Notes: generated by a model from the sequence alone, not told the origin. DNA of 28,491 bases from Elusimicrobiota bacterium (GCA_043819795.1 JBDREN010000033.1:1-28491), one strand, 5' to 3'. Counted from the stretch's first letter, positions 1,075-16,838 are shown. A program made the numbers and translations.

Positions 1075-2498
1075 CCCGTCTTCAGCCCGAACTTATCGAC
1101 GCGGCGGCGCAGGGCGTCCCGGCCGATGCCCAGCAGCTTTGCCGCGTTGACTTGGTTGCCTCCCGTGCGCTCCAAAGCCTGGCGCACGAGGCTCTTCTCC
1201 ACCGCGTCGAGCCGGATCCCTCCCTCGGGCAGGTCGAACGCGCAGGGAGCCGGCGCGGCGTCGACCCCGGCAGGGGCGCCGTGCCGGACGCCCTCGGGAA
1301 GGGCGTTGGCGGCAGGTGCGGCGTCCGCAGGCGGCCGGGCGGCCGGGCCCGATGCCGGCCGGAACTCCGTCTCCCCCAGGATCAGCATCCGCTCCAGCGC
1401 GTTGCGCAGCTCCCGCACGTTGCCCGGCCAGGGGTACCCCAGCAGGGCCTTCCCCGTCCGCTCCGATAACGCGGGCTTCGGACGTCGCATCTCGCGGCAG
1501 AGGCGATCCAGAAGGCTTTCCGCCAGCGGAAGGATGTCCTCCCGGCGCTCCCGCAAGGGAAGCAGGCGCACCGTCAGCACGTTCACTCGGTAGTACAGGT
1601 CCGGACGGAAACGGCCCTCCGCCACCGCATTCTCCAGGTCCTCGTTGGTCGCCGCGATCACGCGAACGTCCACCGAGATGTCCTCCCCTCCCCCCACCCG
1701 CTTGAACGTCTTCTCCTCCAAGACGCGCAGCATCTTGGCCTGAAGACCCAGCGGCATGTGGCCGATCTCGTTGAGAAACACCGTGCCCCCCGCCGCTATC
1801 TCGAAGAGCCCCTTCTTGCGGTGCGTCGCCCCCGTGAAGGCCCCCTTCTCGTAGCCGAAGAGCTCGCTCTCCAGCAGCGACTCCGGGATGGAGGCGCAGC
1901 CGATCTCCATGAGCGGCTGGCCGGAGCGCGGGCTCTCCCAGTGGATCGTGCGCGCGAGCCGGTCCTTGCCCGTGCCGCTCTCCCCGAGCAATAGGATGGT
2001 GCCGAAGGGAGAGGCCGCCATCTTGCGTGCCGAGACGAGCACCTCGCGCATGGCGCCGCTGGCCGCCACGAAGGAGTCGAAGCTGTAGCGCACCCGCCGG
2101 CGCCGCCGCGCCTCTTGAATGCGGCTTCTGAGGGCTTCGGTCTCCAGGACGCGATTGAGGGTGAGCTTGAGGCCCTCGAGCTGCAGCGGCTTCGGGATGT
2201 AGTCCGCTGCCCCCTCGCGGATCGCCTCGATGGCGCTGTCCATGTCCGCGAACGCCGTCATGAGGATGACCGGGATCTCGGGACGGAGGCGGCGCGCCTC
2301 CTTGAGCAGCTCGAGCCCGCTCGCTCCCTCGAGACGCAGGTCGGTCAGGATGACGTCAAGGTCTTCCTTCTCGATAAGCGCCAGGGCCTTCTCGGCGCTC
2401 TCCGCGGTGAGGGCCTTATACCCGGCGGACCCCAGGCCCTCCGAAAGCGACCACCGGATCAACTCCTCATCGTCGACGATCAGGATCTTCGCGGCCAT
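1071..2498 (-). CDS. sigma54-dependent response regulator, NtrC/AtoC family (REC-AAA+-HTH), copy 1
   Basis: Receiver (IVDDE, LTDLRL, MTAF, IPKP), Walker A GESGTGK, ESELFG..GAFTGA, FRPDLYYR, YPWPGNVRELRN and a Fis-type HTH (GNQVNAAKLLGI). Confidence 0.95.
   Translation of the reverse strand: MAAKILIVDDEELIRWSLSEGLGSAGYKALTAESAEKALALIEKEDLDVILTDLRLEGASGLELLKEARRLRPEIPVILMTAFADMDSAIEAIREGAADYIPKPLQLEGLKLTLNRVLETEALRSRIQEARRRRRVRYSFDSFVAASGAMREVLVSARKMAASPFGTILLLGESGTGKDRLARTIHWESPRSGQPLMEIGCASIPESLLESELFGYEKGAFTGATHRKKGLFEIAAGGTVFLNEIGHMPLGLQAKMLRVLEEKTFKRVGGGEDISVDVRVIAATNEDLENAVAEGRFRPDLYYRVNVLTVRLLPLRERREDILPLAESLLDRLCREMRRPKPALSERTGKALLGYPWPGNVRELRNALERMLILGETEFRPASGPAARPPADAAPAANALPEGVRHGAPAGVDAAPAPCAFDLPEGGIRLDAVEKSLVRQALERTGGNQVNAAKLLGIGRDALRRRVDKFGLKTG
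1255..1299 (-). repeat. In-frame palindromic coding repeat, copy 1 (regulator linker)
   Basis: Plus strand gcggcgtcgaccccggcaggggcgccgtgccggacgccctcggga. Near-identical to 7656-7699, 16423-16467 and 16486-16530. Confidence 0.9.
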
Positions 2499-2580
2499 GG
2501 CAGGCTCCGGCGTTAAGGACTTCGGGCAACGAACTTGCCGGACCCGGCATCAAGATCATCGTCGTTGCCGCCGCTCCAAC

Positions 2581-2596
2581 TGCGCGGAATCGCGCA
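2581..2596. promoter_or_regulatory. Candidate upstream activator site for a sigma54 activator
   Basis: Perfect palindrome TGCGCG-GAAT-CGCGCA starting 57 bp upstream of the -24 GG. Related sites lie at 10451-10466 and 10471-10486 upstream of the hemA promoter. Confidence 0.6.
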
Positions 2597-2635
2597 CCGC
2601 GGCACGAATCCCCGCGACGCAGAAGGGTCAAAGGA

Positions 2636-2652
2636 CTGGCCAATTCGTTGCT
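2636..2652 (+). promoter_or_regulatory. sigma54 promoter of the multiheme c/b cytochrome operon
   Basis: CTGGCCAATTCGTTGCT: GG 2638-2639, 10 nt, GC 2650-2651. One mismatch from the hemA promoter. Confidence 0.85.
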
Positions 2653-2734
2653 GATTTATATGATTGACAAATAGTCCAAGCCTCAAGAACGCCGGCGCGG
2701 GTCCGGCGGCGTTTCGGGAGGGATAGTCGAAGGA

Positions 2735-5539
2735 GTGAACGCTCACGAGCTCGTGAAACGGCTGCGCCCCGGGCTCTGGGCTCTTTTCGCCGCGGCCTGC
2801 GTGGCCGGCGCTCCGGACGCCGCGGCCGCCCCCGCTGACGAGGCGGGATACTGCCTGGCCTGCCACGGAATCGAGGATTTCCAGACCGAGCGCGACGGAA
2901 AACCGCGCTCCCTCTTCATCGACCGGAGCGGATTCCAGAAGACCGTCCACGCGAACATATCCTGCGTCGCCTGCCACGCGGATCTGGATGGGGCGGAGCT
3001 GCCCCACGCCGACCGGCTCGCCCCGGCGCGGTGCGGCGCCTGTCACGCCGGGCAGGAGGAAAAGTTCGCCGACAGCCTGCACGGGAAGGCCCTGGCCCGC
3101 GGCGACAAGCTGGCGCCCCGATGCTCGAGCTGTCACGGCGCTCACGACATCCTGCCCATAAAACATCCGGAATCGGCCCTCTCTCCTTTGCGCATCCCGT
3201 TCGTATGCGGGTCATGCCACAGCGAGGGAGCTCCCGCGCAGAGGCAACGCGAGATCCACCAGCACAACATACTGAAGAACTACTCCTTGAGCATCCATGG
3301 GGAGGGCCTCCTGCGCAAGGGTCTGAGCGTCAGCGCCAACTGCGCCTCCTGCCATACGGCGCATCAGATACTCCCGCACACCGACGCGCGCTCATCCATC
3401 TCCCACGGCAATATCGCGAAGACATGCACCCAGTGCCACACCCAGATCGAGACCGTCCACCGCAAGGTGATCCGGGGGGAGCTCTGGCAGACGAAACCCC
3501 ACACCATCCCCGTTTGCGTCGAATGCCACCAGCCCCACAAGGTGCGGAAGGTATTCTACGACCAGGGCATGGCGGACCGGGACTGCCTCAGCTGCCACGC
3601 GCGCGAGGGCGTCCGGAGGGCCTCGGACGGCAAGTCCCTGCGGGTCGAGGCGGCGAAGATCGGCCGGTCCGTCCACGGCAAGACCGCCTGCGCGCAGTGC
3701 CACACGGGCGCATCGCCGTCGAAACGGCGTCCGTGCGAGACCGTGACCGGAAAGGTGGACTGCTCCGTGTGCCACAGCTCCCAGGTGGAGCAGTATCGCA
3801 AGAGCACGCACGGGGGGCTTTTCGCCCGGAAGGACCCGAACGCGCCCACCTGCGTGGAATGCCACGGAGACCACGGCGTTCTCGGGAAGAAGGATCACGC
3901 GTCCCCCACCTTCCCCATCAATGTCCCGGCCCTTTGCGCCCGCTGCCACCGGGAAGGCAAGCAGGCCGCCGTCCGCTACAGGGGAGAGCAGCACGAGATA
4001 CCGAAGAACTATGTGGAGAGCATCCACGGCAAGGGGCTCTTGAAGAGCGGGCTGGTGGTCGCCGCCACGTGCACGAGCTGCCATACGTCCCATGGCGAGC
4101 TGCCGGCGAGCGACCCGGCGTCCAGCGTGCATGAAGACAACATCGCACGCACCTGTTCCGGATGCCATCACGTGGTCTATGAGAAGTACGCCGTAAGCGT
4201 CCACTCCCCCCTCGTCACCAAGACCGACAAAAAGCTCCCGCGATGCAACACCTGCCACACCGCGCACACGATCAAGCGCACGGACAAGGGGGGATTCAAG
4301 CTGGAGATCATGGACCGGTGCGGCAAGTGCCATCTCGACGTCGCCAAGACCTACTTCGACACCTATCACGGGAAGGTCTCCCAGCTCGGCTACGACAAGA
4401 CGGCGAAATGCCATGACTGCCACGGCGCGCACGCCCTCTTCTCGGTGGACGATCCCCGCTCGCGCCTGAGCCGCCGGAACATCACGGAGACCTGCCGGAA
4501 GTGCCATCCGGGCGCCACCAAGCGGTTCGCGGGATACCTGACCCACAGCACGCACCACGACCCGCACAAGTATCCGCTGATCTTTTGGACCTTCTGGCTG
4601 ATGACGAGCCTCCTGGTCGGGACTTTCACCGTGTTCGGGATCCATACGCTGCTGTGGCTGCCGCGCTCCCTGCAGATGAGGCGCGCCCATCCTCCCGAGC
4701 CCTACCAGCCGGACAAGAAGCAGGTCCAGAGGTTCACGCCGCTCAGCCGCGTCCTTCACATCTTGATGATCGTGAGCTTCATGACCTTGGCGGTCACCGG
4801 AATGACCTTGAAGTTCTCCTATACGCGCTGGGCGGCGGTCCTTTCGCACATCCTGGGCGGATTCGAGACCGCCGGCTATCTCCATCGCGCCGCCGCGCTC
4901 CTCATGCTCGGCATATTCTTCACGCACCTTTGGGACGTGCTCACGCGCAAGCGCCGGGAGTGCGGCGGCTGGAAAGCCCTCCTCATCGGGCCGGACACCA
5001 TGCTCTTCACCAAACGGGACCTGAGCGAGTTCGTCTCCACCATCAAGTGGTATCTCGGCCTGGGCACACGCCCCGATTACGGGCGATGGACCTACTGGGA
5101 GAAATTCGACTATTTCGCCGTCTTCTGGGGCATCGCCATCATCGGCTCCACCGGGCTGGCCCTGTGGTTCCCCGAGCTGATCACTCGATTCCTTCCGGGC
5201 TGGATCATCAACCTCGCCACGATCATCCATAGCGACGAGGCGCTTCTGGCGACCGGGTTCATCTTCACCATACACTTCTTCAACACCCATTTCCGGCCGG
5301 AGAAGTTCCCCATGGACATCACGGTCTTCACTGGCCGGACGTCTTTGGAGGAGCTTCAGCGCGAACGGCGCGGCGAATACGACCGGCTCGCCGCGAGCGG
5401 CGAGCTGGACCGGTCCCTGGTCGATCCGCTGCCTCCCGGGTGGATAAAGGCCGCCCGGGTATTCGGGGCGGCCGCCCTTGCCGTGGGGCTCGCCCTGGTC
5501 GCGGGGATCATCTATGCCATACTGTTCGCGTACCGGTAG
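2735..5539 (+). CDS. 19-heme cytochrome c fused to a membrane cytochrome b domain (CbcL-like quinol:cytochrome oxidoreductase)
   Basis: GTG start, signal peptide and 19 counted CxxCH motifs, followed by several TM helices with His candidates for heme b (LHILM, LHRAA..THL, IHSDEA..IHFFNTH). The WTYWEKFDYFAVFWG motif is typical of FdhC/Ni-hydrogenase cytochrome b-like domains. Confidence 0.9.
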   Translation: MNAHELVKRLRPGLWALFAAACVAGAPDAAAAPADEAGYCLACHGIEDFQTERDGKPRSLFIDRSGFQKTVHANISCVACHADLDGAELPHADRLAPARCGACHAGQEEKFADSLHGKALARGDKLAPRCSSCHGAHDILPIKHPESALSPLRIPFVCGSCHSEGAPAQRQREIHQHNILKNYSLSIHGEGLLRKGLSVSANCASCHTAHQILPHTDARSSISHGNIAKTCTQCHTQIETVHRKVIRGELWQTKPHTIPVCVECHQPHKVRKVFYDQGMADRDCLSCHAREGVRRASDGKSLRVEAAKIGRSVHGKTACAQCHTGASPSKRRPCETVTGKVDCSVCHSSQVEQYRKSTHGGLFARKDPNAPTCVECHGDHGVLGKKDHASPTFPINVPALCARCHREGKQAAVRYRGEQHEIPKNYVESIHGKGLLKSGLVVAATCTSCHTSHGELPASDPASSVHEDNIARTCSGCHHVVYEKYAVSVHSPLVTKTDKKLPRCNTCHTAHTIKRTDKGGFKLEIMDRCGKCHLDVAKTYFDTYHGKVSQLGYDKTAKCHDCHGAHALFSVDDPRSRLSRRNITETCRKCHPGATKRFAGYLTHSTHHDPHKYPLIFWTFWLMTSLLVGTFTVFGIHTLLWLPRSLQMRRAHPPEPYQPDKKQVQRFTPLSRVLHILMIVSFMTLAVTGMTLKFSYTRWAAVLSHILGGFETAGYLHRAAALLMLGIFFTHLWDVLTRKRRECGGWKALLIGPDTMLFTKRDLSEFVSTIKWYLGLGTRPDYGRWTYWEKFDYFAVFWGIAIIGSTGLALWFPELITRFLPGWIINLATIIHSDEALLATGFIFTIHFFNTHFRPEKFPMDITVFTGRTSLEELQRERRGEYDRLAASGELDRSLVDPLPPGWIKAARVFGAAALAVGLALVAGIIYAILFAYR

Positions 5540-5575
5540 CCCCGCGCGGACCGCGCCCTCGACAGGACCTGCGAG

Positions 5576-5591
5576 GGGCGGCATCTTTGCT
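5576..5591 (+). promoter_or_regulatory. Possible internal sigma54 promoter
   Basis: GG at 5577-5578, 10 nt, then GC at 5589-5590 within TTTGCT. The -24 half is a weak match (GGGCGG). Confidence 0.35.
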
Positions 5592-5615
5592 AGGATTTCG
5601 TCGGAGGAGATCGTC

Positions 5616-7457
5616 TTGTCTGGAAAAGCACTCGGAGTCGTGTTCGCGGTCGTCGTCCTCCTGCTTCCCGCGCGCTCATGGGGGCAGGAGAACGCCGACT
5701 GCATGGCCTGCCACGGCGAAGGACTCATGGGCGCCTCCCGCGTGCGCCTGCCGGCGTTCCAGGCCTCGATCCACGGCGAGAACCTATGCGTTTCCTGCCA
5801 CGCGGACGCGGCCGACCTGCCCCACGCCGAAGACCTCAAGCCCGTGGCCTGCAAGAGCTGCCACCGGATCGAGTCGCAGATCTACATGGATTCCGACCAC
5901 GGCAGGGCCGTGAGCCGCGGGCTCAGCGAGGCCGCCGCCTGCAAAGACTGCCACGGGCACAGCCACACCCTGCTCAATTCCCGGCATCCGGACTCGCCCG
6001 TGAACAGGAAGAACATCCTGGCGACCTGCGCGCGCTGCCACGCCGACCCCAAACGGATGGCGAAGTTCCCTCTATCGGAGCGGGATCCGATCGACTCCTA
6101 CGGCCACACCGTGCACGGCGAGGCCGTCGCCGCCGGGAAGTCGAACTCGGCCGTGTGCACCGACTGCCACGGTTCCCACGACCTCCATGGGGCGGCCAAC
6201 AGCGCGAGCCGGGTGTTCTGGCGCAACGTCCCGGAGACGTGCGGCCGCTGCCACGCCAACGTGCTGTCGGTATACGCCGAGAGCATCCACGGCCGCGCCT
6301 CGAAGGCCGGGATCAAGGAGTCCCCCGTCTGCACGGGCTGCCACGGCGAGCACACGATCCGCTCGCCGAAGGACCGGTCCTCCGCGGCCTGGAGCGGCGC
6401 CGTCACCAAGACCTGCTCCGGATGCCATTCCTCGGAGCGGCTGATCCGGAAATTCGGCCTTCCGGTGGACCGCCTCAAGACCTACATGGACACCTACCAC
6501 GGCCTGGCGCAGCAGCGCGGAGACCTGCACGTGGCGAACTGCGCCTCGTGCCACGGCTTTCACGATATCCTGCCCCACACGGACCCCCGCTCATCGATCC
6601 ATCGCTCGAACCTGAGCAAGACCTGCGGGAAGTGCCATCCGGGAGCGGGGGCCCAGCTCTCGCGGGGCTTCGTGCACGCGCCCCCCACCGAGAGGCACTG
6701 GACCCTGCGGGCGGCATACCTCTTCTACCTGATCGTCATCCCGCTGACGATCGGCGGGATGCTGCTCCACAACGGACTTGATTTCCTCAAGAAACTCCTC
6801 CGCGCCGGACTGCCTCCGCCCCACGGCCATTCCGGGGACGACCTGCGCATGACGGTGAACGAGCGCTTTCAGCATATCGTGCTCACCGCGGTCTTCGTCA
6901 TACTCGCCTACACGGGCTTCGCTCTGAAGTACCCGGAGGCCTGGTGGGCCGCTCCCATGGCCCTGGCCGCGGAGCACACGAGGCGCGCCGCGCACCGCTG
7001 GAGCGCGCTCGTCTTCTGCCTGCTCGGGGTCTACCACGCGGCCTACATGGTCCTGACCCGGCGGGGAAGGCGCGTCCTCGGCGGCCTTATGCCGCGTCCG
7101 CGGGACATCGGGGACACGCTCCGCCTGACGGCCTACAACGCCGGACTGCGCCGGTCGGCCCCGCGCCTGTCGACGCCCTACAACTATATAGAGAAGTCGG
7201 AATACTGGGCGCTGGCGTGGGGCTCGGTGGTGATGGTCGTGTCCGGCGGGATCCTGGTGTTCCCGGACCTCACTCTGAAGCACTTCCCCATGTGGTTCCC
7301 GGAGCTGGCCACGATGGTCCATTTCTACGAGGCCGTCCTGGCCTGCCTGGCCATCGCCGTCTGGCACCTGTATTGGGTGGTGTTCGATCCGTCCGTGTAC
7401 CCGATGAACTGGAGCTGGATCACCGGCCACGTGAAGCGGCTGCACGGCAAGCGCTGA
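5616..7457 (+). CDS. 11-heme cytochrome c fused to a membrane cytochrome b domain (second CbcL-like paralog)
   Basis: SD GGAGGAG at 5603-5609, then in-frame TTG at 5616 and a signal peptide (..ARSWG/QE). It has 11 CxxCH and a TM domain with QHIVL, AHRW..YH, YNYIEKSEYWALAWG and VHFYEA..WHLY. Confidence 0.9.
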   Translation: MSGKALGVVFAVVVLLLPARSWGQENADCMACHGEGLMGASRVRLPAFQASIHGENLCVSCHADAADLPHAEDLKPVACKSCHRIESQIYMDSDHGRAVSRGLSEAAACKDCHGHSHTLLNSRHPDSPVNRKNILATCARCHADPKRMAKFPLSERDPIDSYGHTVHGEAVAAGKSNSAVCTDCHGSHDLHGAANSASRVFWRNVPETCGRCHANVLSVYAESIHGRASKAGIKESPVCTGCHGEHTIRSPKDRSSAAWSGAVTKTCSGCHSSERLIRKFGLPVDRLKTYMDTYHGLAQQRGDLHVANCASCHGFHDILPHTDPRSSIHRSNLSKTCGKCHPGAGAQLSRGFVHAPPTERHWTLRAAYLFYLIVIPLTIGGMLLHNGLDFLKKLLRAGLPPPHGHSGDDLRMTVNERFQHIVLTAVFVILAYTGFALKYPEAWWAAPMALAAEHTRRAAHRWSALVFCLLGVYHAAYMVLTRRGRRVLGGLMPRPRDIGDTLRLTAYNAGLRRSAPRLSTPYNYIEKSEYWALAWGSVVMVVSGGILVFPDLTLKHFPMWFPELATMVHFYEAVLACLAIAVWHLYWVVFDPSVYPMNWSWITGHVKRLHGKR

Positions 7458-7476
7458 GCCGCGGGCTGGCCCGCGG

Positions 7477-7478
<2 letters not shown>
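7457..7478. terminator. Hairpin between convergent genes (probable bidirectional terminator)
   Basis: Perfect 10-bp inverted repeat AGCCGCGGGC-TG-GCCCGCGGCT between the two stop codons; no U tract. Confidence 0.55.
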
Positions 7479-8898
<1,420 letters not shown>

Positions 8899-8913
8899 GG
8901 CCGCCGGCCGGCG

Positions 8914-10362
8914 TCAGCCGGTCTCCTCGAGTCCGGACGGCAGGCGCAAAAAGACGGAGGCGCCGCCGCCGGGAGCGTTCTCGATCCATACCTCTCCGCC
9001 GTAGGCCTGCACGATCTGCTTGACCACCGGAAGCCCCAACCCGCTGCCGCCCTTGCGGGTCGTGAAGAAGGGGCGGAAGATGTTGTCGAGATCATCGGCG
9101 GGCACGCCGGGGCCGCTGTCGCGGACCTGCGCCAGGATCGTCCCCGGACTCTCGGCCTCCGCCGAGACGGTCAGCTCTCCGCCCGACGGCATCGCCTGCG
9201 CGGCGTTCAGCAGGAGGTTCAAGAGCACCTGCTGCATCTGCTCGGGATTCGCCTTCACCCGTGGCAGGTCCTCCGGGACGCGCTCGACGAGCCTGATGCT
9301 CTGCGACCGCAGGCGGGACTCGATGAGGAACAAGACCCGGTCCAGCGCCGCCCGGAGACTGAAGGGACGGACTTCGGTCTTCGGCACTCGGGAGTACTCG
9401 AGGAAGTTGGCCATCGTCCTGTTCATCCGGGCGAGCTGATCGAGAATCTGGATGAGCACGGCGCGCCGCGGGTCCCCCTCCGGATGGTCCCGGAGCAGGA
9501 CCTGGATCGCCGAGCCGATCCCAGTCAAAGGGTTTCGCACCTCGTGGGCGAGGTGGGCGGTCAGCTCTCCCAAGGACGCCAGGCGGTCCATGTGCGCCAC
9601 CTGGCGCCGGTGGAGCCCCACGATCTCCTGCCGATCCTTCTGCAGAGTGCCGACCATGGAGTTGAAGCCCCGGGCGATGGTGCCGAACTCCCCCGTGAGC
9701 GGGGTGTCGATCCGGGTCTCGAGGCGGCCGCGGCCGACCTCCTCCATCGCGTCGGCGATGCGCCGCATGGGGCGATGCACCAAGCGGCGGACGAGGAACA
9801 AAGACGACGCCCCGAAAAGAAACACTCCTCCGAAGAACATGGAGAGGGCGTACCGGGAGTGCGCGCGCAGGCCCCGCGCCGTGCGGTCCAACGGCGAGAT
9901 GAGGCGTATGTAGCCCAGGAGCGGCTTATCGCGTTCGTGGCACCGGGCGCAGCTCGGCTTGAAGGGCAGCGGAAACTTCATCGTGAGCCACTTATCGCGG
10001 TCCAGCGGAGGCAGGTCGCTCCTGCGCACCTCCTCCCCCGTGCGGAAATCCGCCGTGTTCACGGCCCTCCCGTCCGCGTCCAGAAGCTGGGCGTAGCTCA
10101 CCGCCGGGCCCTTGCGCAGCGACTCGAAGACCTCGTCGATATGCTCCCGGGACTCCCGGAGCATGGCGTTCTCCACGGCGTCGGCCAGCAGCGGCGACAG
10201 GGAGCCGAGCGTATCCCGCTCCAGGGCCGTCAGCTGCAGGTACGTGGTCCGGAGGTCGTAGGCGATGTACGCGGAGAAGATCGCCCCGATGCAGGCGAAG
10301 GTGGTGGAGAAGAGCTTCACCCCAAGAGGCAAAGCCGCCCATCGTTCTCCCAGGCCCTTCAT
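8914..10362 (-). CDS. Membrane sensor histidine kinase with a periplasmic CxxCH (TM-sensor-TM-HAMP-HisKA-HATPase)
   Basis: Likely start is the ATG at 10362 after GGGGGAC. It has two TM segments, CARCH just before TM2, HAMP (GEFGTIARGFNSM), H-box LAHEVRNPL, N-box NLLLNA, DSGPG, and FFTT..GSGLGL. Confidence 0.9.
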   Translation of the reverse strand: MKGLGERWAALPLGVKLFSTTFACIGAIFSAYIAYDLRTTYLQLTALERDTLGSLSPLLADAVENAMLRESREHIDEVFESLRKGPAVSYAQLLDADGRAVNTADFRTGEEVRRSDLPPLDRDKWLTMKFPLPFKPSCARCHERDKPLLGYIRLISPLDRTARGLRAHSRYALSMFFGGVFLFGASSLFLVRRLVHRPMRRIADAMEEVGRGRLETRIDTPLTGEFGTIARGFNSMVGTLQKDRQEIVGLHRRQVAHMDRLASLGELTAHLAHEVRNPLTGIGSAIQVLLRDHPEGDPRRAVLIQILDQLARMNRTMANFLEYSRVPKTEVRPFSLRAALDRVLFLIESRLRSQSIRLVERVPEDLPRVKANPEQMQQVLLNLLLNAAQAMPSGGELTVSAEAESPGTILAQVRDSGPGVPADDLDNIFRPFFTTRKGGSGLGLPVVKQIVQAYGGEVWIENAPGGGASVFLRLPSGLEETG

Positions 10363-10450
10363 GTCCCCCGTAAGCGCCCCTCCTGCGACCGTCGCCAAGG
10401 TCGGTCTATGATACATATGGTCTTCGGCCGCGGCAAGGATAAACCAGCGA

Positions 10451-10486
10451 TGCGCGGTTCCGCCCAGATGTGCGTGTAATCGCGCA
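10451..10486. promoter_or_regulatory. Tandem candidate upstream activator sites
   Basis: TGCGCG-GTTC-CGCCCA (10451-10466) and TGCGTG-TAAT-CGCGCA (10471-10486), 20 bp start-to-start; both resemble 2581-2596. Confidence 0.6.
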
Positions 10487-10534
10487 CGTGGACGCCATTC
10501 CCGGGGATACCTAACGATTTTGACTGAGAAAGCG

Positions 10535-10551
10535 CTGGCCAATACGTTGCT
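10535..10551 (+). promoter_or_regulatory. sigma54 promoter of hemA-mtrA-mtrB
   Basis: CTGGCCAATACGTTGCT: GG 10537-10538, 10 nt, GC 10549-10550. Confidence 0.85.
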
Positions 10552-10573
10552 GTTTATTGTATTACTAGTCTGA

Positions 10574-11647
10574 ATGCACGCCATGACGCCGAGTTTCACG
10601 GTCGTCGGATTGAGCCACGTTTCAGCCCCCGTGGGGGTTCGGGAGCGGCTTTCGCTGAACGAAAAGGAGAGGAATACCATCTGCCTGCTCGCCGGACGCG
10701 AGTGCGGCATGGATGAGGCGGTCGTCCTGGCCACCTGCAGCCGCTTCGAGGTCTACGGGAACATCACCGAGGAGCGCCTGGGAGCCGTCAAGGATTGGCT
10801 CTGCCGGAGGGCGGGTCAGGATCTGGGCCCCATGCTGTATTCACACCGCGGGCGCGAGGCGGTCCGGCACCTGTGCCGCGTCGCCGCGGGCATGGACTCC
10901 TGGCTGGTCGGAGAGACCGAGATCCTCGGCCAGGTGAAGGCGGCCTACCTCCGGGCCTGCGGCCAGGGCACGGCCGGACGCGCCTGCCACTTGGCTTTCC
11001 AAAGGACCCTGAACGTAGCCAGGAGGGTGCGGCGCGAGACGAACATCGTGGGGGGCATCGCCTCCATCGGCGGCGCGGCCTCGGTCCTGGCCCGGCGCAT
11101 CTTCACCGACCTCCAAGAGAAGCGCATCCTGGTCTTCGGCGCCGGGGCCATGGCCGAGTCCACGGTCCGGCACCTTTGCGCGAAAGGGGTCAGCGGGGTC
11201 TGGGTCAGCAACCGCAGCCTGGATAGGGCGGGGAAGCTGGCCGCGCGCCTGGGCGGCGTCGCTTGCTCGCTGGAGGACGGATTCAATCTTCTGACCGAAG
11301 CGGACATCGCGGTCGTGTCCACCGGCGCGGACGGCTATCTGATCGACGCCGCCCGCGCCGAAGCCGTCTCCCGCCGCCGGGGATCGAAGCCGCTTTTCAT
11401 CATCGACATCGCGGTGCCGCGCAACGTCGATCCGGCGGCGGGGGACGTTTCGGGCATCTATCTTTACGACATCGACAGTCTCCGAAAGATCGTCGAGGAC
11501 AGCCTCGCCAATCGCAGGAAGGACATCGACGAGGCGGACGGGATCGTGGCCGAGGAGTCCCGGGACCTCTGGGACCGCATCGTCCGCCCGCCGGATACGG
11601 CAGGCTCGGGGCGCGGGCCGCGCGGGGAGGCGGCGCTGGTCGGGTGA
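10574..11647 (+). CDS. hemA: Glutamyl-tRNA reductase (short form; start may be 10583)
   Basis: VVGLSH..AP...RE, catalytic ATCSRFEVY, GMDSWLVGETEILGQVK, NADPH-binding GAGAMA, SNRS, and IIDIAVPRNVDP...LYDID. Confidence 0.93.
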   Translation: MHAMTPSFTVVGLSHVSAPVGVRERLSLNEKERNTICLLAGRECGMDEAVVLATCSRFEVYGNITEERLGAVKDWLCRRAGQDLGPMLYSHRGREAVRHLCRVAAGMDSWLVGETEILGQVKAAYLRACGQGTAGRACHLAFQRTLNVARRVRRETNIVGGIASIGGAASVLARRIFTDLQEKRILVFGAGAMAESTVRHLCAKGVSGVWVSNRSLDRAGKLAARLGGVACSLEDGFNLLTEADIAVVSTGADGYLIDAARAEAVSRRRGSKPLFIIDIAVPRNVDPAAGDVSGIYLYDIDSLRKIVEDSLANRRKDIDEADGIVAEESRDLWDRIVRPPDTAGSGRGPRGEAALVG

Positions 11648-11833
11648 CCGCATGATTTCGAGAGGAGTTCGCAGACGGGCCGCCCGTTTCAGGCCTTCGT
11701 TCCAGGCCTACCGCTGGGCGGCGACGCGCAGGGAAGGCGGACTGATCACGATCGGCGGACGGCTGTCCCGCTGGACGACGGCGGACGACCGCCGCCGGGG
11801 CTCGAGAGCCTAAGACGCATTCGGGAGGTCTTT

Positions 11834-12736
11834 ATGAGATTCAGCGCGATCAAGGCGACGGGATGGATCACCTTCGCGGCCGCGGCCGCCATCTTGCTCG
11901 GCGTCATGCAGAACCCGGAAAGCCGGGCTTCCGCGCAAGGCTCGGGCGACGCCGAGCTCATCGGATCCTCGACCTGCTCCGCCTGCCACACGGACCATGC
12001 GAAGGCGTTCGAGAAGACGCTCCACGGGAGGAAGCTCCCGGTCGTCAAGAACATCCCCTTAGAGAAGTCCTGCGAGACCTGTCACGGCCCGGGCTCGAAG
12101 CATGCCGAGGCCGGCGGGAACAAGAACGACCCCGGCTTCTCCACGATCGGGAAGGTGAGCGCGGACACCTGCCTGAGCTGCCACAAGGGCGGGGAGACCA
12201 AGCTCTGGGACGTCAGCGCGCACGCTCAGGCGGGCCTCGACTGCACGAAATGCCACGGCGTGCACAAGGGGGAGGGCACCAAGAACCTGATCCTTTCCCC
12301 GAACGAGACCTGCCTCCAGTGCCACAAGAAGAACAGGCTGGCGATGAACCTGCCCTCGCATCATCCCATGAAGGAGGGGAAGATGAGCTGCGCCAGCTGC
12401 CACAACCCGCACGGCGGGGAGTTCGGCAACCTGAGAGCGGAAAACACGACGGAGCTGTGCTTCAAGTGCCACGCGGAGAAGGCCGGGCCCTTCATCCACG
12501 AGCATCCGCCGGTCTCGGAGGACTGCAAGATCTGCCACGAGCCCCACGGCTCCCAGAACCACCGGCTCCTCAAGAAGAAGCAGCCGCTGCTCTGCCTGGG
12601 CTGCCACAAGCTGCCGCACTGGTCAACAGGCGCCATAGGCACCCCGTCTCTACAGGTGAGGCGGCTCTATTACCAGTGCACGAACTGTCACCGGGAGATA
12701 CACGGCTCGGATCAGAAGAAGCGCTTCGTCCCTTGA
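11834..12736 (+). CDS. mtrA: MtrA/DmsE/PioA/MtoA-family periplasmic decaheme cytochrome c
   Basis: SD GGGAGG, signal peptide and 10 CxxCH. Family motifs: CETCHGPGSKH, PSHHPMKEGKMSCASCHNPHG, CFKCHAEKAGPFIHEHPPV.EDC..CHEPHGS, CTNCH.EIHGS. Confidence 0.9.
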   Translation: MRFSAIKATGWITFAAAAAILLGVMQNPESRASAQGSGDAELIGSSTCSACHTDHAKAFEKTLHGRKLPVVKNIPLEKSCETCHGPGSKHAEAGGNKNDPGFSTIGKVSADTCLSCHKGGETKLWDVSAHAQAGLDCTKCHGVHKGEGTKNLILSPNETCLQCHKKNRLAMNLPSHHPMKEGKMSCASCHNPHGGEFGNLRAENTTELCFKCHAEKAGPFIHEHPPVSEDCKICHEPHGSQNHRLLKKKQPLLCLGCHKLPHWSTGAIGTPSLQVRRLYYQCTNCHREIHGSDQKKRFVP

Positions 12737-12778
12737 TGGGGAGCGTTCGACACTCGGGATTCGCGTGAAGGAGGTCTG

Positions 12779-14821
12779 ATGGCATACACGATATGGACGG
12801 TGACCCTGGCGTCGTCGCTGCTCCTCCCGTGGGGGCGTTCCGCCCGGGCGGCGGACGCCTCTGCCGGCGGAGAAATACGCTTCGTGAACATTGACAACCT
12901 GGGCCCCACCCAGGGGAGGGTCCGCGAGTACGACGGCCGGCAGCGGGACGGGTTCGAGACCGACCTCTGGCTTCGGTCGGCCTTCGGAAACACGCTGCTC
13001 GACCTAGGGGCGAAGGACCTCAACAGCGGCAACGACGGCGCGTACGCGAACTCGACCTGGAGGCACCTCAACAGCGGAAATGAGAGCGCGTACCTGGACT
13101 TGAACGTCGGGTCCCCGCTGCGCCTGCAGGGGGACCTCGGCATCCTGACCCACCGGCAGCCCGTTGTCTTGCACGGCATCATCATCAACGACGTGTACCT
13201 GAACGCCGCGGACGCCACGCCCGAATATGCGAGCGTCAACTACTTCCTGAACAGGTTCTACGGCCCGGAGGACCTGCTTTTCAAGCGCACGGAGAGCCAG
13301 GCGAAGCTGAGCCTCCGGTGCCCCACCCATCCCGCGAGCCTCAGCCTCAAGTACTGGCGCGAGGGCGAGCGCGGCGCCCAGCCCTTTGCCTACTACAACG
13401 GCAATCAATATGTCACGCGCCAGGACCTCGACCGGTATACCCGCGACATCACCGGGACGATCGAGTCGGGCGTCGGCGAGGGGCATGTGGCCTATGAGTT
13501 CATGACGAGGAAGTTCGCGGAGAACGCCCCCACCGCCGTGGACTCGACCGACGCCGGCTCCAACGGCATCATGCTCGAGAAGTACCTCAACATAATCTCC
13601 GACCAGAGCGTCAGGAAGCACAGCCTCTCCGGGACCTACCGGCTCAGGCCCAACCTGAAGGTCGCCGGAGGATTGTCCAGCCGCACACGGGAGCGCCACG
13701 AGACCCATTACAAGATGAGGGCCAATTCGGCCCACGCCGCGGTCGCCTACAAGCCGGCGAAGGACCTCTCCATCACCGGCAGGGCCTACGGCCGGGCGAC
13801 CAAGACCGAGGAGAACGAGGGCCACCCGATGTATCTGTACGATTTCCCGGCGGGGACCAACGCCGGCGTGGACAGCCTTGACTTTTACTCGTATAAGGGC
13901 GATCTCAAAATCAGCTACACGGGCATCAAGCATGTGGCATTCAAGGCGGGGTACAAGCCGTCGCACACCTACCGCCGCAACGCGGGCCTTCATTCCGAAC
14001 GGGAGACGTTCGCCAACGCGATCACGTATCAGGACGGGGTCAGCCATCCCGCATACACCATCGAGAACCCGACGGAGGCCAAGGACACCCGCCACGCCGT
14101 CAGCGCCGGCGTGGATTTCTCGCTTCCCGCGGACGCGCAGCTGGAGCTGGAGGCCGAGTGGCTCACGGCCAACCGGAGCGCGTATCAGTTCATGTCCACC
14201 TCGGAGAACGAGCAGAACGCGACGCTGACCGTGCCCTTCGGCCAGCGGACGCATTTCTTCGCGTCCGGAGGCACCCTTCTGTCTAAGAACGACAAAGCCT
14301 CGTTCGCGAAGTTCCGGAAGCGGCTGTCCCGGATCCTCTTCGGCCTCATGTGGATGGACAAGAAGGACCGGGGTTCGGCGGGTCTGAACTGCTCGTTCGA
14401 GGACGGCGAGGAGATCTTCGACGTATTCTACGACGAGAAAGACCCGGCCGCGGGCAGCGAAGGCCAGATCCATCTCGCCATGCCGTACCAGTACAAGAAC
14501 CACGTGATCTCGGGGAACGGGACGGTAAACCTGCCGTGGAACACGAGCCTCTCCGCGGACGCCTCCTACATCGAGTCCAAAGGCGACAATCTGACGCTGG
14601 GCGTCTTTAACCCGTACCTCACGCCGGCCGTGACGGCGGCGAACCTCTACCCGACCGATGTCCGGATCATCCATTGGGGCGTCTCGGCGGCGTACGAGGC
14701 GATAAAGAACGTAACGGCGAGGTTGGGCTACAATCAGTCGGTCTGGCTCGACGCCTACGACGGCGGCGCCAACAACGGCCGTGCCCATGTCGCGAGCTTC
14801 GACCTGTCCGCGAAGTTCTGA
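12779..14821 (+). CDS. mtrB: MtrB/PioB-type outer-membrane beta-barrel (porin of a porin-cytochrome complex)
   Basis: Directly after the decaheme gene; SD AAGGAGG; signal peptide; 680 aa; N-terminal RVREYDG motif; amphipathic beta strands; C-terminal Phe (FDLSAKF). The assignment rests mainly on context and architecture. Confidence 0.75.
   Translation: MAYTIWTVTLASSLLLPWGRSARAADASAGGEIRFVNIDNLGPTQGRVREYDGRQRDGFETDLWLRSAFGNTLLDLGAKDLNSGNDGAYANSTWRHLNSGNESAYLDLNVGSPLRLQGDLGILTHRQPVVLHGIIINDVYLNAADATPEYASVNYFLNRFYGPEDLLFKRTESQAKLSLRCPTHPASLSLKYWREGERGAQPFAYYNGNQYVTRQDLDRYTRDITGTIESGVGEGHVAYEFMTRKFAENAPTAVDSTDAGSNGIMLEKYLNIISDQSVRKHSLSGTYRLRPNLKVAGGLSSRTRERHETHYKMRANSAHAAVAYKPAKDLSITGRAYGRATKTEENEGHPMYLYDFPAGTNAGVDSLDFYSYKGDLKISYTGIKHVAFKAGYKPSHTYRRNAGLHSERETFANAITYQDGVSHPAYTIENPTEAKDTRHAVSAGVDFSLPADAQLELEAEWLTANRSAYQFMSTSENEQNATLTVPFGQRTHFFASGGTLLSKNDKASFAKFRKRLSRILFGLMWMDKKDRGSAGLNCSFEDGEEIFDVFYDEKDPAAGSEGQIHLAMPYQYKNHVISGNGTVNLPWNTSLSADASYIESKGDNLTLGVFNPYLTPAVTAANLYPTDVRIIHWGVSAAYEAIKNVTARLGYNQSVWLDAYDGGANNGRAHVASFDLSAKF
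13017..13105 (+). repeat. 48-bp imperfect tandem duplication within mtrB
   Basis: acctcaacagcgg..gcgcgtac begins at 13017 and again at 13065, encoding DLNSGNDGAY / HLNSGNESAY. Confidence 0.75.
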
Positions 14822-14970
14822 GCTTTCGGCCGGCGCGGTGCGTTGACGACTCCGGGCTGATCACAGCCGGACGACCTCCTTCTTCGCATCCCGGGCCCTA
14901 TTAGGCGGGGCCCGTCCCGGCGGCTCCGGGAGCCGGCCAACCCGCTCCCGCGGGATTCGCGGGGCGGAAC

Positions 14971-15008
14971 GGGCCCGATGCCTTCAAGGCTCGGGCCCCG
15001 TTTGTTGT
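14971..15008 (+). terminator. Probable intrinsic terminator after mtrB
   Basis: GGGCCCGA-t-GCCT-tca-AGGC-TCGGGCCC stem followed by cgTTTGTTGT. Confidence 0.55.
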
Positions 15009-15047
15009 GCTTGTCCCGGCGCCGCGCGCTCCGGGGAGATGACGCCA

Positions 15048-15359
15048 ATGGCCTTACCCAATTGCTGGGAGATCATGAAGTGCGGCCGGGAGCCCGGGGG
15101 CGTGAACGCCGGCCATTCGGGCGTATGCCCGGCCTTCCCGGACTACGGGCACAGCTGCTGGGGCGTCGCGGGCACCGTATGCGGCGACGACGCTCCCGGG
15201 ACCTTCGCGGGCAAGAAGTGGGGCTGTCTGGACTGCGAGGTCTTCAAGCGCTACGAGAGGCTCTCCGGGATCTGCGGAGAGCAGCTTGAGAGAGAGTATC
15301 CCGAAGAGGTCCGCAGGTTCGCCGACCTCATGGTGCGTCGGGCCTACGGAAACAAGTAA
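15048..15359 (+). CDS. Two-CW domain Cys-rich protein
   Basis: NCWEIMKCGREPGG..GVCPA..SCWGVAGTVC..CLDCEVF pattern with 8 Cys. SD GGGGAG spacing favours the ATG at 15048 over 15039. Confidence 0.8.
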   Translation: MALPNCWEIMKCGREPGGVNAGHSGVCPAFPDYGHSCWGVAGTVCGDDAPGTFAGKKWGCLDCEVFKRYERLSGICGEQLEREYPEEVRRFADLMVRRAYGNK

Positions 15360-15365
15360 CCTTCC

Positions 15366-15395
15366 GCCCGGCCCGGGCCGCGGGAGCCGGGCCCG
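15366..15395. terminator. GC-rich hairpin between convergent genes
   Basis: GGCCCGG...CCGGGCC inverted repeat between the two-CW stop (15359) and the aceF stop (15399). Confidence 0.4.
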
Positions 15396-15398
15396 ATA

Positions 15399-16838
15399 TC
15401 AAGCCGAGTCTTCCAAAGAAAGGACAAGGGGATGCCGGAACGCGTCCGCCACCCAGCGCAGGAAGCGGGCGCCGTCGGCCCCGTCGATGATGCGGTGGTC
15501 GTAGGATAGGGAAAGCGGCAGCATGAGCCGCGGGGCGCAGACCCCTCCCGAGAAAGAGGGCTCCTGGGCCGCCCTCGAGATGCCGAGGATCGCCACCTCC
15601 GGCCAGTTAACAATGGGCGAGAACTGCGTCCCGCCGATGCCCCCAAGATTCGTGATCGTGAAGCACCCGCCCCGCATGTCCTCCATGGACAGCTTCCGGG
15701 CGCGCGCCTGGGCCGAGACGCGGACGAGCTCCGCCGAGAGCTCGATGATGCCTTTCTTGTCCGCGTCGCGGATCACCGGCACCAATAATCCCCGCTCGGT
15801 ATCCACGGCCACGCCGATGTGGACGTACTTCTTGTGGACGATCTCGCCCGCCGCCTCGTCCAGGCTCGCGTTGAACTGAGGGAAGCGCTTGAGGGCCGCG
15901 GCGCAGATCTTGAGCGCGACCGCGGTGACGGTGAACTTGCCGCCTTTCTCCTCGAAACGCTTGGCGTAGCGTTTGCGCATGTCCTCGAGCTCGGTGATGT
16001 CCGTCTTGTCGTACTGGGTGACGTGGGGCACGCGGAGCCAGGCCGCGCTCATGTGGCGAGCCGTGCTGGCGCGCACGCTCGTCATGGGCTTGCGCTCGAC
16101 CTCCCCCCACTTGGCGAAGTCCGGCAGCGCCGCCGGCGCGGGAGCGGGCGGCTGTCCGACCGTCGAAGCGGGCCCCGCGGCCGCCCGCGCGCGAGCGTAC
16201 GCCTTGACGTCCTCGATGGATATCCTCCCCGCCGGGCCCGAGCCCGACACCGAGGCGATGTCCACGCCGATCTCGCGAGCGAAACGGCGGACCGAAGGAG
16301 CGGCCGGACCCGCCGGGGCAGCGCTGGGCCCTTCCGCGCCGGCGGCGGCGCGATCCTCCGTGGGCCTCGCGACGGGATCCTTCGCCTCCTGGACCCCTCC
16401 GGCGGGCTCGGCCGCGGGGGGCGCGGCGTCGACCCCGGCAGGGGCGCCGTGCCGGACGCCCTCAGGAGATGTCTTGGCGACCGGTGCGGCGTCGACCCCG
16501 GCAGGGGCGCCGTGCCGGCCGCCCTCGGGAGCGGCGTCGGCGGCAGGCGCCGACGACAATGCATCCGCCTTTTCAACGCCCGCGGCGGACTTGCGGCCGT
16601 CGCCGTCCTCGAACCTGAGGATCGCCTGTCCGGGCTTGACCTTGTCCCCGGCCTTGGCCAGTATCTCGGCTACTCGGCCGCTCAAAGGCGAGGGCACCTC
16701 GAGCGCGGCCTTCTCGGTCTCGAGCTCGATGACCGGCTGGTCCTTGACGACCTCGTCCCCTTCCTTGACGAGGACCGTGACCACGTCCCCTGATTCGATG
16801 TTTTCGCCCAGGTCGGGCAGCTTGAATTCGGTCGCCAT
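15399..16838 (-). CDS. aceF: Pyruvate dehydrogenase E2, dihydrolipoamide acetyltransferase (one lipoyl domain)
   Basis: Lipoyl domain LPDLGE..LETEKAALEVPS, E3-binding APSVRRFARE.GVD..V.GSGP.GRI, and catalytic FTITNLGGIG..LSYDHRIIDG; directly downstream of aceE. Confidence 0.93.
   Translation of the reverse strand: MATEFKLPDLGENIESGDVVTVLVKEGDEVVKDQPVIELETEKAALEVPSPLSGRVAEILAKAGDKVKPGQAILRFEDGDGRKSAAGVEKADALSSAPAADAAPEGGRHGAPAGVDAAPVAKTSPEGVRHGAPAGVDAAPPAAEPAGGVQEAKDPVARPTEDRAAAGAEGPSAAPAGPAAPSVRRFAREIGVDIASVSGSGPAGRISIEDVKAYARARAAAGPASTVGQPPAPAPAALPDFAKWGEVERKPMTSVRASTARHMSAAWLRVPHVTQYDKTDITELEDMRKRYAKRFEEKGGKFTVTAVALKICAAALKRFPQFNASLDEAAGEIVHKKYVHIGVAVDTERGLLVPVIRDADKKGIIELSAELVRVSAQARARKLSMEDMRGGCFTITNLGGIGGTQFSPIVNWPEVAILGISRAAQEPSFSGGVCAPRLMLPLSLSYDHRIIDGADGARFLRWVADAFRHPLVLSLEDSA
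16423..16530 (-). repeat. In-frame palindromic coding repeat, copies 3 and 4 (tandem, 63-bp period) in the aceF linker
   Basis: Cores at 16423-16467 and 16486-16530, encoding PEGGRHGAPAGVDAAP-VAKTS-PEGVRHGAPAGVDAAP. Confidence 0.9.

What the first reader, a model, noticed from the sequence alone, without database searches (positions are those of the whole stretch)
1255..16530. A short palindromic DNA element inserted in frame into linkers of unrelated proteins (RPE-like coding repeat)
Seen: a 44-45-bp core occurs four times (1255-1299, 7656-7699, 16423-16467, 16486-16530). Copies differ at only 1-3 positions, including third codon positions. All sit in the same orientation and frame in their host genes and encode PEG(V/G)RHGAPAGVDA. 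The hosts are unrelated: the AAA+-HTH linker of both sigma54 activators and the lipoyl/E3-binding linker of aceF. The core is a hairpin (CCGGCA-N9-TGCCGG with an inner GGCGCC). The unit is 63 bp (21 aa): in both regulators a GACGCCG(C/G)(A/G)CC direct repeat (DAAP..DA(A/G)P) recurs 63 bp apart across the core, and aceF has two units at the same 63-bp period. The V and G variants each occur once in a regulator and once in aceF. Known: Rickettsia palindromic elements and some REP/MITE-like repeats insert in frame into genes. Inference: this is a lineage-specific mobile or gene-converting repeat that adds peptide to flexible linkers. No transposase is visible in the window.
Basis: partly seen in the sequence, partly recalled or inferred. 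Interest (0 to 1): 0.88.

Follow-up and report, generated by a model that had tools for sequence, protein, structure and literature searches.

The report
Strand-oriented 63-bp in-frame insertion repeat
A 63-letter DNA repeat has inserted at dozens of places in this uncultured bacterium's genome, often in frame inside genes where it is predicted to add a floppy 21-residue loop, and because neighbouring copies face the same way whatever the gene direction, it likely spreads locally as single-stranded DNA at the replication fork.

Summary
The four copies are real, but they amount to two insertion sites plus duplications. They belong to a genome-wide family: 38 copies lie within 6 mismatches of the core, and an HMM finds 70 hits against 0 in reversed DNA. 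One copy interrupts another repeat, fixing the unit at exactly 63 bp with a CCGC overlap. Orthologues of aceF, the regulators, ribF, mutY and two glycosidases lack the extra residues.

It is a DNA element, not a protein motif: 20 of 43 copies lie outside confidently called genes, and five of six frames are used. It is only weakly palindromic, with no terminal inverted repeats or locus-specific target duplication.

That strand is mostly the leading strand (22 of 23, or 22 of 26, loci), but single copies in relatives split 3:3.

Best reading: a non-autonomous one-hairpin element moved as single-stranded DNA at the fork, probably by an HUH transposase in trans. No cognate enzyme was found. The scan has noted similar repeats in this and other genomes. 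New variant of RPE/REP/PATE-like repeats.

The parts
1255..1317 (-). 63-bp unit in sigma-54 regulator 1, in frame in the AAA+ to HTH linker
   Evidence: Boundaries transferred from the exact empty site on contig C83
1318..1321 (-). CCGC immediately 5' of unit 1 (target or overlap tetranucleotide; the unit also ends in CCGC)
1267..1287 (-). CCGGCA-N9-TGCCGG hairpin of unit 1, the most conserved part of the family
1289..1292 (-). GGCG 5' of the hairpin, a candidate guide tetranucleotide (inferred; no covariation support)
   Evidence: GGCG in 47 of 56 copies; pairing rule from PMC3201880 passages
7655..7717 (-). 63-bp unit in sigma-54 regulator 2 (paralogue of regulator 1, same site)
16423..16485 (-). 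63-bp unit, second of the tandem pair in the aceF lipoyl to E3-binding linker
16486..16548 (-). 63-bp unit, first of the tandem pair in aceF
1071..2498 (-). Host gene: NtrC-type regulator (receiver, sigma-54 AAA+, HTH_8), 475 aa
7477..8898 (-). Host gene: paralogous NtrC-type regulator, 473 aa
15399..16838 (-). Host gene: aceF (pyruvate dehydrogenase E2), 479 aa; linker 46-64 aa longer than in 7 relatives

Best explanation
This is a 63-bp selfish DNA repeat, present at dozens of sites in this genome, that likely spreads as a single DNA strand at the replication fork, probably cut and rejoined at CCGC by an HUH-type (Y1 or Y2) transposase acting in trans. SHOWN: dispersed family; exact 63-bp insertion with a 4-bp CCGC overlap at one site; empty orthologues; head-to-tail arrays; local clusters of more similar copies on one strand irrespective of gene strand. 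INFERRED: the strand that reads PEG in frame is exposed on the lagging-strand template; its hairpin is bound by the enzyme; a 63-nt circle (or a rolling-circle copy) inserts 3' of CCGC nearby on the same strand; and the element's own end recreates the target, which gives the arrays. INFERRED: because 63 is a multiple of three and two frames give Ala/Pro/Gly-rich peptide, insertions in linkers, tails and surface loops survive selection while most others are purged. The peptide is a tolerated passenger, not the purpose. The mobilising enzyme is NOT identified.
For: Exact empty site: the C83 copy splits a 45-nt repeat, and the rejoined flanks match 23 uninterrupted places. No TIRs and no locus-specific target duplication (5' vs 3' five-mer identity 0.689 within loci, 0.691 shuffled, 27 loci), as with IS200/IS605 elements and PATEs (PMC3119063 passages). 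CCGC precedes 15 of 47 first copies and ends 12 nt after the hairpin in 35 of 56 copies, against 1.3% per position; IS608 cuts 10 nt 3' of its hairpin (PMC3201880). The 3' half is conserved and the 5' half ragged. Eight of 10 multi-copy contigs are uniform in strand. Leading strand in 22 of 23 decided loci, 11:1 by contig, while genes are only 1349:1172; the dnaA-dnaN contig fixes G-rich as leading. The element is C-rich on that strand and CCGC is slightly commoner on the other, so composition does not explain it. Clustering: 27 same-contig pairs against 3.6 expected; same-contig copies differ at 7.2 vs 9.9 positions, p 0.002. Internal control: the DDE-type MITE is unoriented (16:11); a 54-bp module is 11:1 oriented when free and 3:3 when MITE-borne (sorted by eye). 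Lagging-template targeting is established for IS608/ISDra2 (PMC5027513), orientation bias for IS200 and IS91 (PMC3971601), and circle or rolling-circle amplification is proposed for BIMEs (PMC3333891). Four ~300-aa Y1 genes with HUH and Tyr and one intact-looking Y2 gene are in the genome.
Against: No Y1 gene is flanked by the repeat: 0 of 26 Y1 loci in the 7 other carrier genomes, and in G000 only C72, where the copy is 1.1 kb away inside another gene and the Y1 lacks HUH and Tyr. The G000 Y1 genes have their own TIRs. No TnpB, and the IS200-type gene is broken. Fork polarity is not reproduced in relatives: 3 leading, 3 lagging, 4 undecidable of 10 contigs. With four-fold sites only, G000 gives 22 of 26 loci and 10:3 contigs, and two contig pairs probably join inside the repeat, so contigs are not independent. 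The one exact-junction copy (C83) is itself on the lagging strand. Guide variants (GTCG, GACG, GGAG) show no matching change of the CCGC ends. Ends vary: 32 of 47 first copies lack an exact 5' CCGC, and ribF gained 108 bp (45+63) at a GACGC microhomology. The hairpin is weak and shows no compensatory change in its stem.
Confidence: 0.47

Rival explanations
1. No dedicated enzyme: the unit is copied by replication template switching. A stalled nascent strand jumps, by microhomology (GCCGC-ACC or GACGC words), to a nearby copy on the same template, copies 45 or 63 nt and jumps back; slippage then builds the arrays.
For: Local clustering and local similarity; about 10-bp similarity at both ends, with target-like 3' flanks; internal GACGCC repeat 45 bp apart and the 45+63 gain in ribF; variable ends; other unrelated repeat families in the genome also form same-strand local clusters; no cognate transposase found; no fork polarity in relatives.
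Against: It does not by itself predict 10-11 of 12-13 contigs on the leading strand, unless they are one replichore region. The C83 insertion has only a 4-bp overlap. It is hard to see why one sequence with a conserved hairpin and loop recurs across two families of the order.
Confidence: 0.3
2. Insertion is orientation-neutral (unknown enzyme or recombination), and the strand bias comes afterwards from orientation-dependent deletion or fork stalling.
For: Relatives' single copies lie in both orientations; exceptions exist in G000. Orientation-dependent instability of structured repeats is general knowledge (recalled, no call).
Against: The most alike, hence youngest, copies are already uniform in strand. 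Folding energy is similar on both strands (-17.8 vs -19.4 kcal/mol). It does not explain clustering.
Confidence: 0.1
3. A host-selected feature: a polar chromosome site (protein-binding, segregation-type) or a useful linker peptide spread by gene conversion.
For: Strand polarity in G000; one frame dominates in genes (17 of 23); orthologous-site copies persist in two pairs of relatives.
Against: 41 matches in G000 but 0-4 in 100 relatives; five frames and non-coding copies; variation nearly flat across codon positions (0.092/0.086/0.125); orthologues lack the peptide; copies interrupt, and are interrupted by, other mobile repeats.
Confidence: 0.06
4. A classical MITE moved by a DDE transposase, or a fragment of the genome's 161-bp MITE.
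For: A diverged 60-bp relative sits inside the 221-bp form of the MITE.
Against: No TIRs; no locus-specific target duplication; 12 of 15 complete MITE copies lack any extra module, so the module entered the MITE; the MITE is unoriented.
Confidence: 0.04
5. Assembly artefact of a metagenome-assembled genome.
For: Two contig breaks fall inside the repeat; no reads covering the sites could be laid.
Against: Copies differ from one another, keep reading frames, and occur in 7 separately assembled genomes and one metagenome contig.
Confidence: 0.02

Closest known systems
Rickettsia palindromic elements (RPE; PMC10969869, PMC3184786 and PMC3733652, passages or parts seen)
   Same: Dispersed non-autonomous repeat; many copies fused in frame inside unrelated housekeeping genes, giving a recurrent peptide; no known dedicated transposase.
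   Different: 63 bp rather than about 105-150 bp; one small hairpin rather than a long palindrome; head-to-tail arrays; strong local clustering and shared DNA strand (not mentioned for RPEs in the passages seen); GC-rich genome of another phylum.
GTAG/CGTC-tagged REPs, BIMEs and REPINs with TnpA-REP/RAYT (PMC3733652, PMC3333891, PMC3116915)
   Same: Short hairpin with a conserved tetranucleotide nearby (a CGTC lies 5' of the stem on one strand); some intragenic copies; tandem REP arrays in opposite orientation on opposite sides of the P. fluorescens SBW25 chromosome are described.
   Different: No GTAG; the stem lacks the 8-9 bp A/T-starting stem, 4-5 nt loop and CCA tail of CGTC families; copies are head-to-tail, never inverted dimers; no flanked RAYT gene.
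PATEs, especially the 52-bp terminal-only HqIRS46 of Haloquadratum (PMC3119063, passages)
   Same: Transposase-free, no TIRs, no target duplication, near-terminal palindrome, short single-palindrome form, ragged termini beyond the palindrome, nested with other mobile elements.
   Different: No two-ended parent element or IS605-type transposon with this hairpin was found; in-frame coding copies and arrays dominate here.
IS200/IS605 peel-and-paste and IS91-family rolling-circle elements (PMC5027513, PMC3201880, PMC3971601)
   Same: Insertion next to a tetranucleotide without duplication; strand asymmetry tied to replication; cut about 10-12 nt 3' of a hairpin.
   Different: No transposase, one hairpin only, 63 bp; guide-target pairing not supported by covariation.
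Mycobacterial MIRUs (PMC3184786, passage)
   Same: 40-100 bp, about 40-50 copies, GC-rich internal inverted repeat, open frames, tetranucleotide direct repeat at a filled site.
   Different: No imperfect TIRs, and no stop/start overlap with flanking genes was seen for this family; sequence relationship not tested.

Membership tests
RPE (Rickettsia palindromic element) | Dispersed repeat inserted in frame in unrelated genes, absent from orthologues | tested here: met
RPE (Rickettsia palindromic element) | About 105-150 bp, strongly palindromic | tested here: not met
   63 bp; fold z about 0 to -0.9
RPE (Rickettsia palindromic element) | Sequence homology to RPE-1 to RPE-10 | not testable with these tools
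   No RPE library held; Rfam has no match in the window
RPE (Rickettsia palindromic element) | Peptide is translated | not testable with these tools
   Host ORFs are intact; AlphaFold gives the ribF insert pLDDT <50 between two strands; no expression data
GTAG/CGTC REP (REPIN/BIME) | Terminal GTAG or CGTC tag abutting an 8-9 bp stem with a 4-5 nt loop (CGTC families) | tested here: not met
   6-bp stem, 9-nt loop; CGTC is separated from the stem on one strand and variable on the other
GTAG/CGTC REP (REPIN/BIME) | Mostly inverted dimers, extragenic | tested here: not met
   Arrays are head-to-tail; 23 of 43 copies in genes
GTAG/CGTC REP (REPIN/BIME) | Copies flank a RAYT/TnpA-REP gene | tested here: not met
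   0 of 26 Y1 loci in 7 carrier genomes; G000 Y1 genes have other TIRs; genomes are incomplete
MITE (DDE-mobilised) | Terminal inverted repeats | tested here: not met
   Ends are direct, not inverted, repeats
MITE (DDE-mobilised) | Target-site duplication that varies by locus | tested here: not met
   Within-locus identity equals shuffled; a fixed 4-bp CCGC duplication cannot be excluded at C83
PATE / non-autonomous IS200-IS605 derivative | No TIR, no TSD, subterminal hairpin, insertion 3' of a 4-5 nt target | tested here: met
   One exact site; CCGC enrichment; only 15 of 47 first copies keep an exact CCGC
PATE / non-autonomous IS200-IS605 derivative | Ends resemble those of an IS605-type transposon | tested here: not met
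   No HMM hit beside the two intact IS200-type genes of relatives or the broken one in G000; no TnpB in G000
PATE / non-autonomous IS200-IS605 derivative | Guide tetranucleotide pairs with the cleavage site | tested here: inconclusive
   GGCG fits CCGC under the IS608 rule, but 9 guide variants show no matching change; chance fit is easy in GC-rich DNA
PATE / non-autonomous IS200-IS605 derivative | Active strand on the lagging-strand template | tested here: inconclusive
   22 of 23 or 22 of 26 loci in G000, 3:3 in relatives
PATE / non-autonomous IS200-IS605 derivative | Mobilised by TnpA through a single-stranded circle | not testable with these tools
   Needs biochemistry or circle-junction reads

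The most novel reading that the evidence does not exclude
A minimal one-hairpin mobile unit: a 63-nt single-stranded circle in which one hairpin addresses both ends at CCGC hops locally along the lagging-strand template using a non-cognate host HUH enzyme. Several unrelated small repeat families of this genome (54-bp module, 45-nt subfamilies) ride the same fork-coupled route, which continually writes new linker peptides into housekeeping proteins.
Probability: 0.22. Interest if true: 0.78.

Novelty: new variant of a known kind. Interest (0 to 1): 0.5.

Why it matters
[quoted passage not shown] This family gives unusually testable handles: an exact 63-bp unit, a 4-nt junction, a defined strand, local spread, a short list of candidate HUH enzymes in the same genome, and an internal control (the same kind of module unoriented when carried by a DDE MITE). 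It also shows a route by which non-coding selfish DNA adds 15-42-residue loops to core enzymes (aceF, ribF, mutY). The phenomenon of coding repeats is known, the host is uncultured and no mobilising enzyme is identified, which limits the score.

Tried and rejected
Rfam scan of the window: no match. Protein search with aceF: the best 120 listed hits were distant (64-66% identity at most) and gave no close empty allele. Run search: no RNA holder listed. Laying three DNA runs' contigs gave only short pieces, none informative at the insertion sites. Phage and plasmid blastn: 1 and 2 weak partial hits (E 3e-3, 7e-4), treated as chance. Exact-pattern scans: 2 loci in GTDB genomes and 1 in metagenomes. 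A looser 18-letter pattern was mostly coding noise; of the 30 loci it returned, 5 were confirmed by HMM (all already known) and one more scored weakly. Five of the non-G000 matches (G014:C335, G009:C253, G012, G069, G077) were dropped as chance after inspecting their flanks. U32 peptidase orthologues were too distant to place the site. TSD test negative. Covariation search found no compensatory pair inside the stem. Ordering contigs onto replichores failed, both by synteny (scrambled within 20 kb) and by end overlaps. Promoter and terminator scan of one intergenic three-unit array: none. The resemblance between the hairpin's 5' arm and the Y1 genes' TIR start (9 of 10 letters) was set aside as weak, because that position varies in half the copies. 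The glmM/nnr 45-nt repeat of earlier notes is a separate family. An HMM iteration seeded on the glmM flank found only itself. Gene calls come from a home-made hexamer caller, so genic and intergenic counts are approximate.
Full report
OBSERVATION. They lie in two NtrC-type regulators (1071-2498, 7477-8898) and aceF (15399-16838), outside Pfam domains. The regulators are paralogues that differ at 10.4% of bases overall and 7.9% inside the unit, and aceF holds a tandem pair, so the window shows two independent sites. The core's stem is real but unremarkable in stability: z -0.01 for the 45-mer, and mean z -0.8 and -0.9 for the two strands over 26 loci. The alignment fold gives only a 4-5 bp helix, and no compensatory pair was found in the stem.

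GENOME-WIDE FAMILY. The window is contig C33 of G000 (4.99 Mb, 241 contigs, 66.8% GC, 90% complete). Two named public records with the motif are titled uncultured Elusimicrobia bacterium, and earlier scan notes give the same phylum for this genome. A Hamming scan finds 38 copies within 6 mismatches of the core. An HMM built from them gives 70 hits at E<=1 and none in the reversed genome. Head-to-tail arrays of 2-3 units occur at 63-bp period (C33, C113, C140, C155), and diverged relatives at 58, 60 and about 63-64 bp. With a home-made gene caller, 23 of 43 anchored copies are inside confident genes and 20 are intergenic or at gene edges, against 83% coding (p 6e-6). Of the 23, 17 use the PEG frame and 6 use four other frames, 5 of them antisense. 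Variation is nearly flat over codon positions (0.092, 0.086, 0.125). This is a DNA element filtered by selection, not a conserved protein motif.

EMPTY SITES AND BOUNDARIES. aceF: the E3-binding motif starts at residue 178 against 114-132 in 7 relatives. Regulators: the two relatives that align on both sides of the site have 53 residues where G000 has 76. ribF: 11 of 14 orthologues have 41-44 residues where G000 has 81; two have different inserts in the same loop and one further on. The gain reads as 108 bp (45+63) bounded by a GACGC microhomology. AlphaFold places this insert, at pLDDT <50, between two strands of a kinase domain that otherwise scores mostly above 60. An amylase (69 vs 42-48), mutY (69 vs 39-40, 5 of 5) and a GH57 protein (126 vs 59-67, two sites) show the same. 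The exact junction comes from contig C83, where a copy splits a member of a separate 45-nt repeat family. Removing 63 bp restores a sequence matching 23 uninterrupted places, with a 4-bp CCGC overlap. CCGC precedes 15 of 47 first copies and ends 12 nt after the hairpin in 35 of 56 copies (background 1.3%). The two ends are no more alike within a locus than across loci (27 loci), so there is no locus-specific target duplication, and there are no inverted ends.

STRAND AND PLACE. Eight of 10 contigs with several copies have them all on one strand, in genes of either direction and between genes. Using third-position skew corrected for gene strand, and the dnaA-dnaN contig C138 to fix G-rich as leading, 22 of 23 decided high-scoring loci are on the leading strand (8 of 31 undecided; 11:1 by contig). 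With weaker hits included it is 32 of 37. Genes are 1349:1172. Thirteen of 14 other repeat families were not significantly biased, though many are palindromic and so poor controls. Against this: with four-fold sites only it is 22 of 26 and 10:3 contigs, two contig pairs probably join inside the repeat, and single copies in relatives are 3 leading, 3 lagging and 4 undecidable. Clustering is firm: 27 same-contig pairs against 3.6 expected, never reached in 20,000 simulations. Same-contig copies differ at 7.2 vs 9.9 of 63 positions (p 0.002; 0.007 without the paralogue). So local, orientation-preserving spread is shown; a tie to fork direction is probable in G000 but not shown to be general.

DISTRIBUTION. 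A 19-letter core pattern matches 41 times in G000 and 1-4 times in 9 of 100 other genomes of the order (backwards control: 1 match in all). After inspection, true copies are in 7 other genomes (G002, G009, G014, G025, G039, G042, G100) and one metagenome contig. Hosts, named by eye from their translations (recalled labels, no family scan), are scpB, a RodZ-like gene, miaB and a DnaA-like gene. G000's own scpB-like and RodZ-like genes lie on contigs without HMM hits, so insertions are lineage-specific in both directions.

ENZYMES. G000 has five ~290-330-aa Y1 genes and a broken IS200-type gene. The five carry their own inverted ends, and one (C72, 1.1 kb from a copy) lacks HUH and Tyr. None of 26 Y1 loci in the 7 other carriers has the repeat within 1.5 kb. 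There is no TnpB match. There are three Y2 matches, one intact-looking (C91) and two broken; one broken gene holds a 54-bp module and the other a very weak copy-like stretch (E 0.26 genome-wide). Under the IS608 pairing rule (PMC3201880 passages), the GGCG 5' of the hairpin would address CCGC, but 9 guide variants show no matching change.

MECHANISM. Shown: unit, junction at one site, empty orthologues, arrays, clustering, shared strand. Inferred (0.47): single-strand cut-and-join at CCGC by an HUH enzyme in trans on the lagging-strand template, as for IS608 (PMC5027513 passages), with arrays from reinsertion at the element's own end or rolling-circle copying as proposed for BIMEs (PMC3333891 passages). 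Main rival (0.30): enzyme-free template switching at microhomologies, which fits the ragged ends, the ribF junction and the relatives' mixed orientation. Survival in genes is explained by the multiple-of-three length and benign Ala/Pro/Gly frames (inference). That it is a mobile, non-autonomous DNA repeat at all I put at about 0.95.

KNOWN KINDS AND NOVELTY. It works like an RPE in effect and like a terminal-only PATE in anatomy, but fails a defining test of each family: size and palindromy for RPE; tag, dimers and RAYT for REP; TIR and TSD for MITE; a parent IS for PATE. Intragenic REPs and replichore-opposed REP arrays are already described. I found no paper on such repeats in Elusimicrobiota (none of the 15 listed papers contains the phylum stem) or on strand-oriented intragenic repeats (2 general papers). 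The library lacks most subscription journals. Papers seen: PMC3733652 parts 1-4 of 8; PMC6006769 part 1 of 10 plus passages; passages of PMC10969869, PMC3184786, PMC3971601, PMC3116915, PMC5027513, PMC3597680, PMC3333891, PMC3119063 and PMC3201880. Figures and supplements (for example the REP consensus figures and the intragenic REP list of PMC3733652, and PATE ends in PMC3119063) were not seen and could hold a closer relative. Earlier scan notes report other in-frame repeat families in this genome and strand-oriented RPE-like repeats in seven other genomes; these are unchecked leads, and my strand reading was stated before I saw them. Verdict: real, new variant of a known kind, interest 0.5.

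Noticed in passing
G000:C83:17848-18068; C37:10587-10801; 15 complete copies genome-wide: A 161-bp MITE with 16-17-bp TIRs and CTAG target duplication acts as a carrier: 12 of 15 complete copies are 160-162 bp, two carry a 54-bp module (215 bp) and one a 60-bp relative of the finding's repeat (221 bp).
   Followed up: partly
G000:C37:10545-10850: The 215-bp MITE is inserted into a copy of the 63-bp element at a CTAG variant of its 5' half, so the two elements nest in both directions.
   Followed up: yes
G000:C138:3694-3859, C30:14665-45848, C171:5058-5160 and others: A 54-bp module (51-bp variants) forms head-to-tail arrays; free copies are 11:1 on one strand relative to skew, MITE-borne copies 3:3 (sorted by eye).
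   Followed up: partly
G000:C83, C218, C36, C182 (46 loci): The separate 45-nt in-frame repeat is unoriented overall (24 lagging, 20 leading) but locally uniform, and two subfamilies seem to lean to opposite strands (by eye).
   Followed up: partly
G000:C85:1181-1417 and C52:16610-17053: Two broken IS91-family (Y2) transposase genes each contain a small repeat: a 54-bp module in frame in C85, a very weak 63-bp-like stretch in C52.
   Followed up: partly
G000:C96, C102, C140, C198, C72: Five ~300-aa Y1 genes bounded by GG.GTCAGGC inverted ends (C72 also matches the DnaA C-terminal family); the C96-type end is itself a family of about 44 segments.
   Followed up: partly
G000, about 34 loci (example C70:4321-4357): A 37-bp intergenic hairpin family is strand-biased relative to skew (6:24, p 0.001); whether this follows transcription was not tested.
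   Followed up: no
L062 (G005) and L066 (G014), ribF kinase loop: The same ribF loop carries different, unrelated inserts in two other genomes, and L072 has one nearby: a hotspot of tolerated insertions.
   Followed up: no
G000:C155:38802-40754; G009:C58; G014:C58: A DnaA-like ATPase gene carries the repeat in all three genomes, at a different place and frame in G000 than in the other two.
   Followed up: partly
window 601-14821: Multiheme cytochrome cluster: two multiheme proteins fused to cytochrome b561-type domains (2735-5539, 5478-7457), a hemA-like ORF, another multiheme ORF (11834-12736) and a 680-aa ORF without Pfam match (12779-14821), possibly a porin-cytochrome pair (the last label is a guess).
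   Followed up: no
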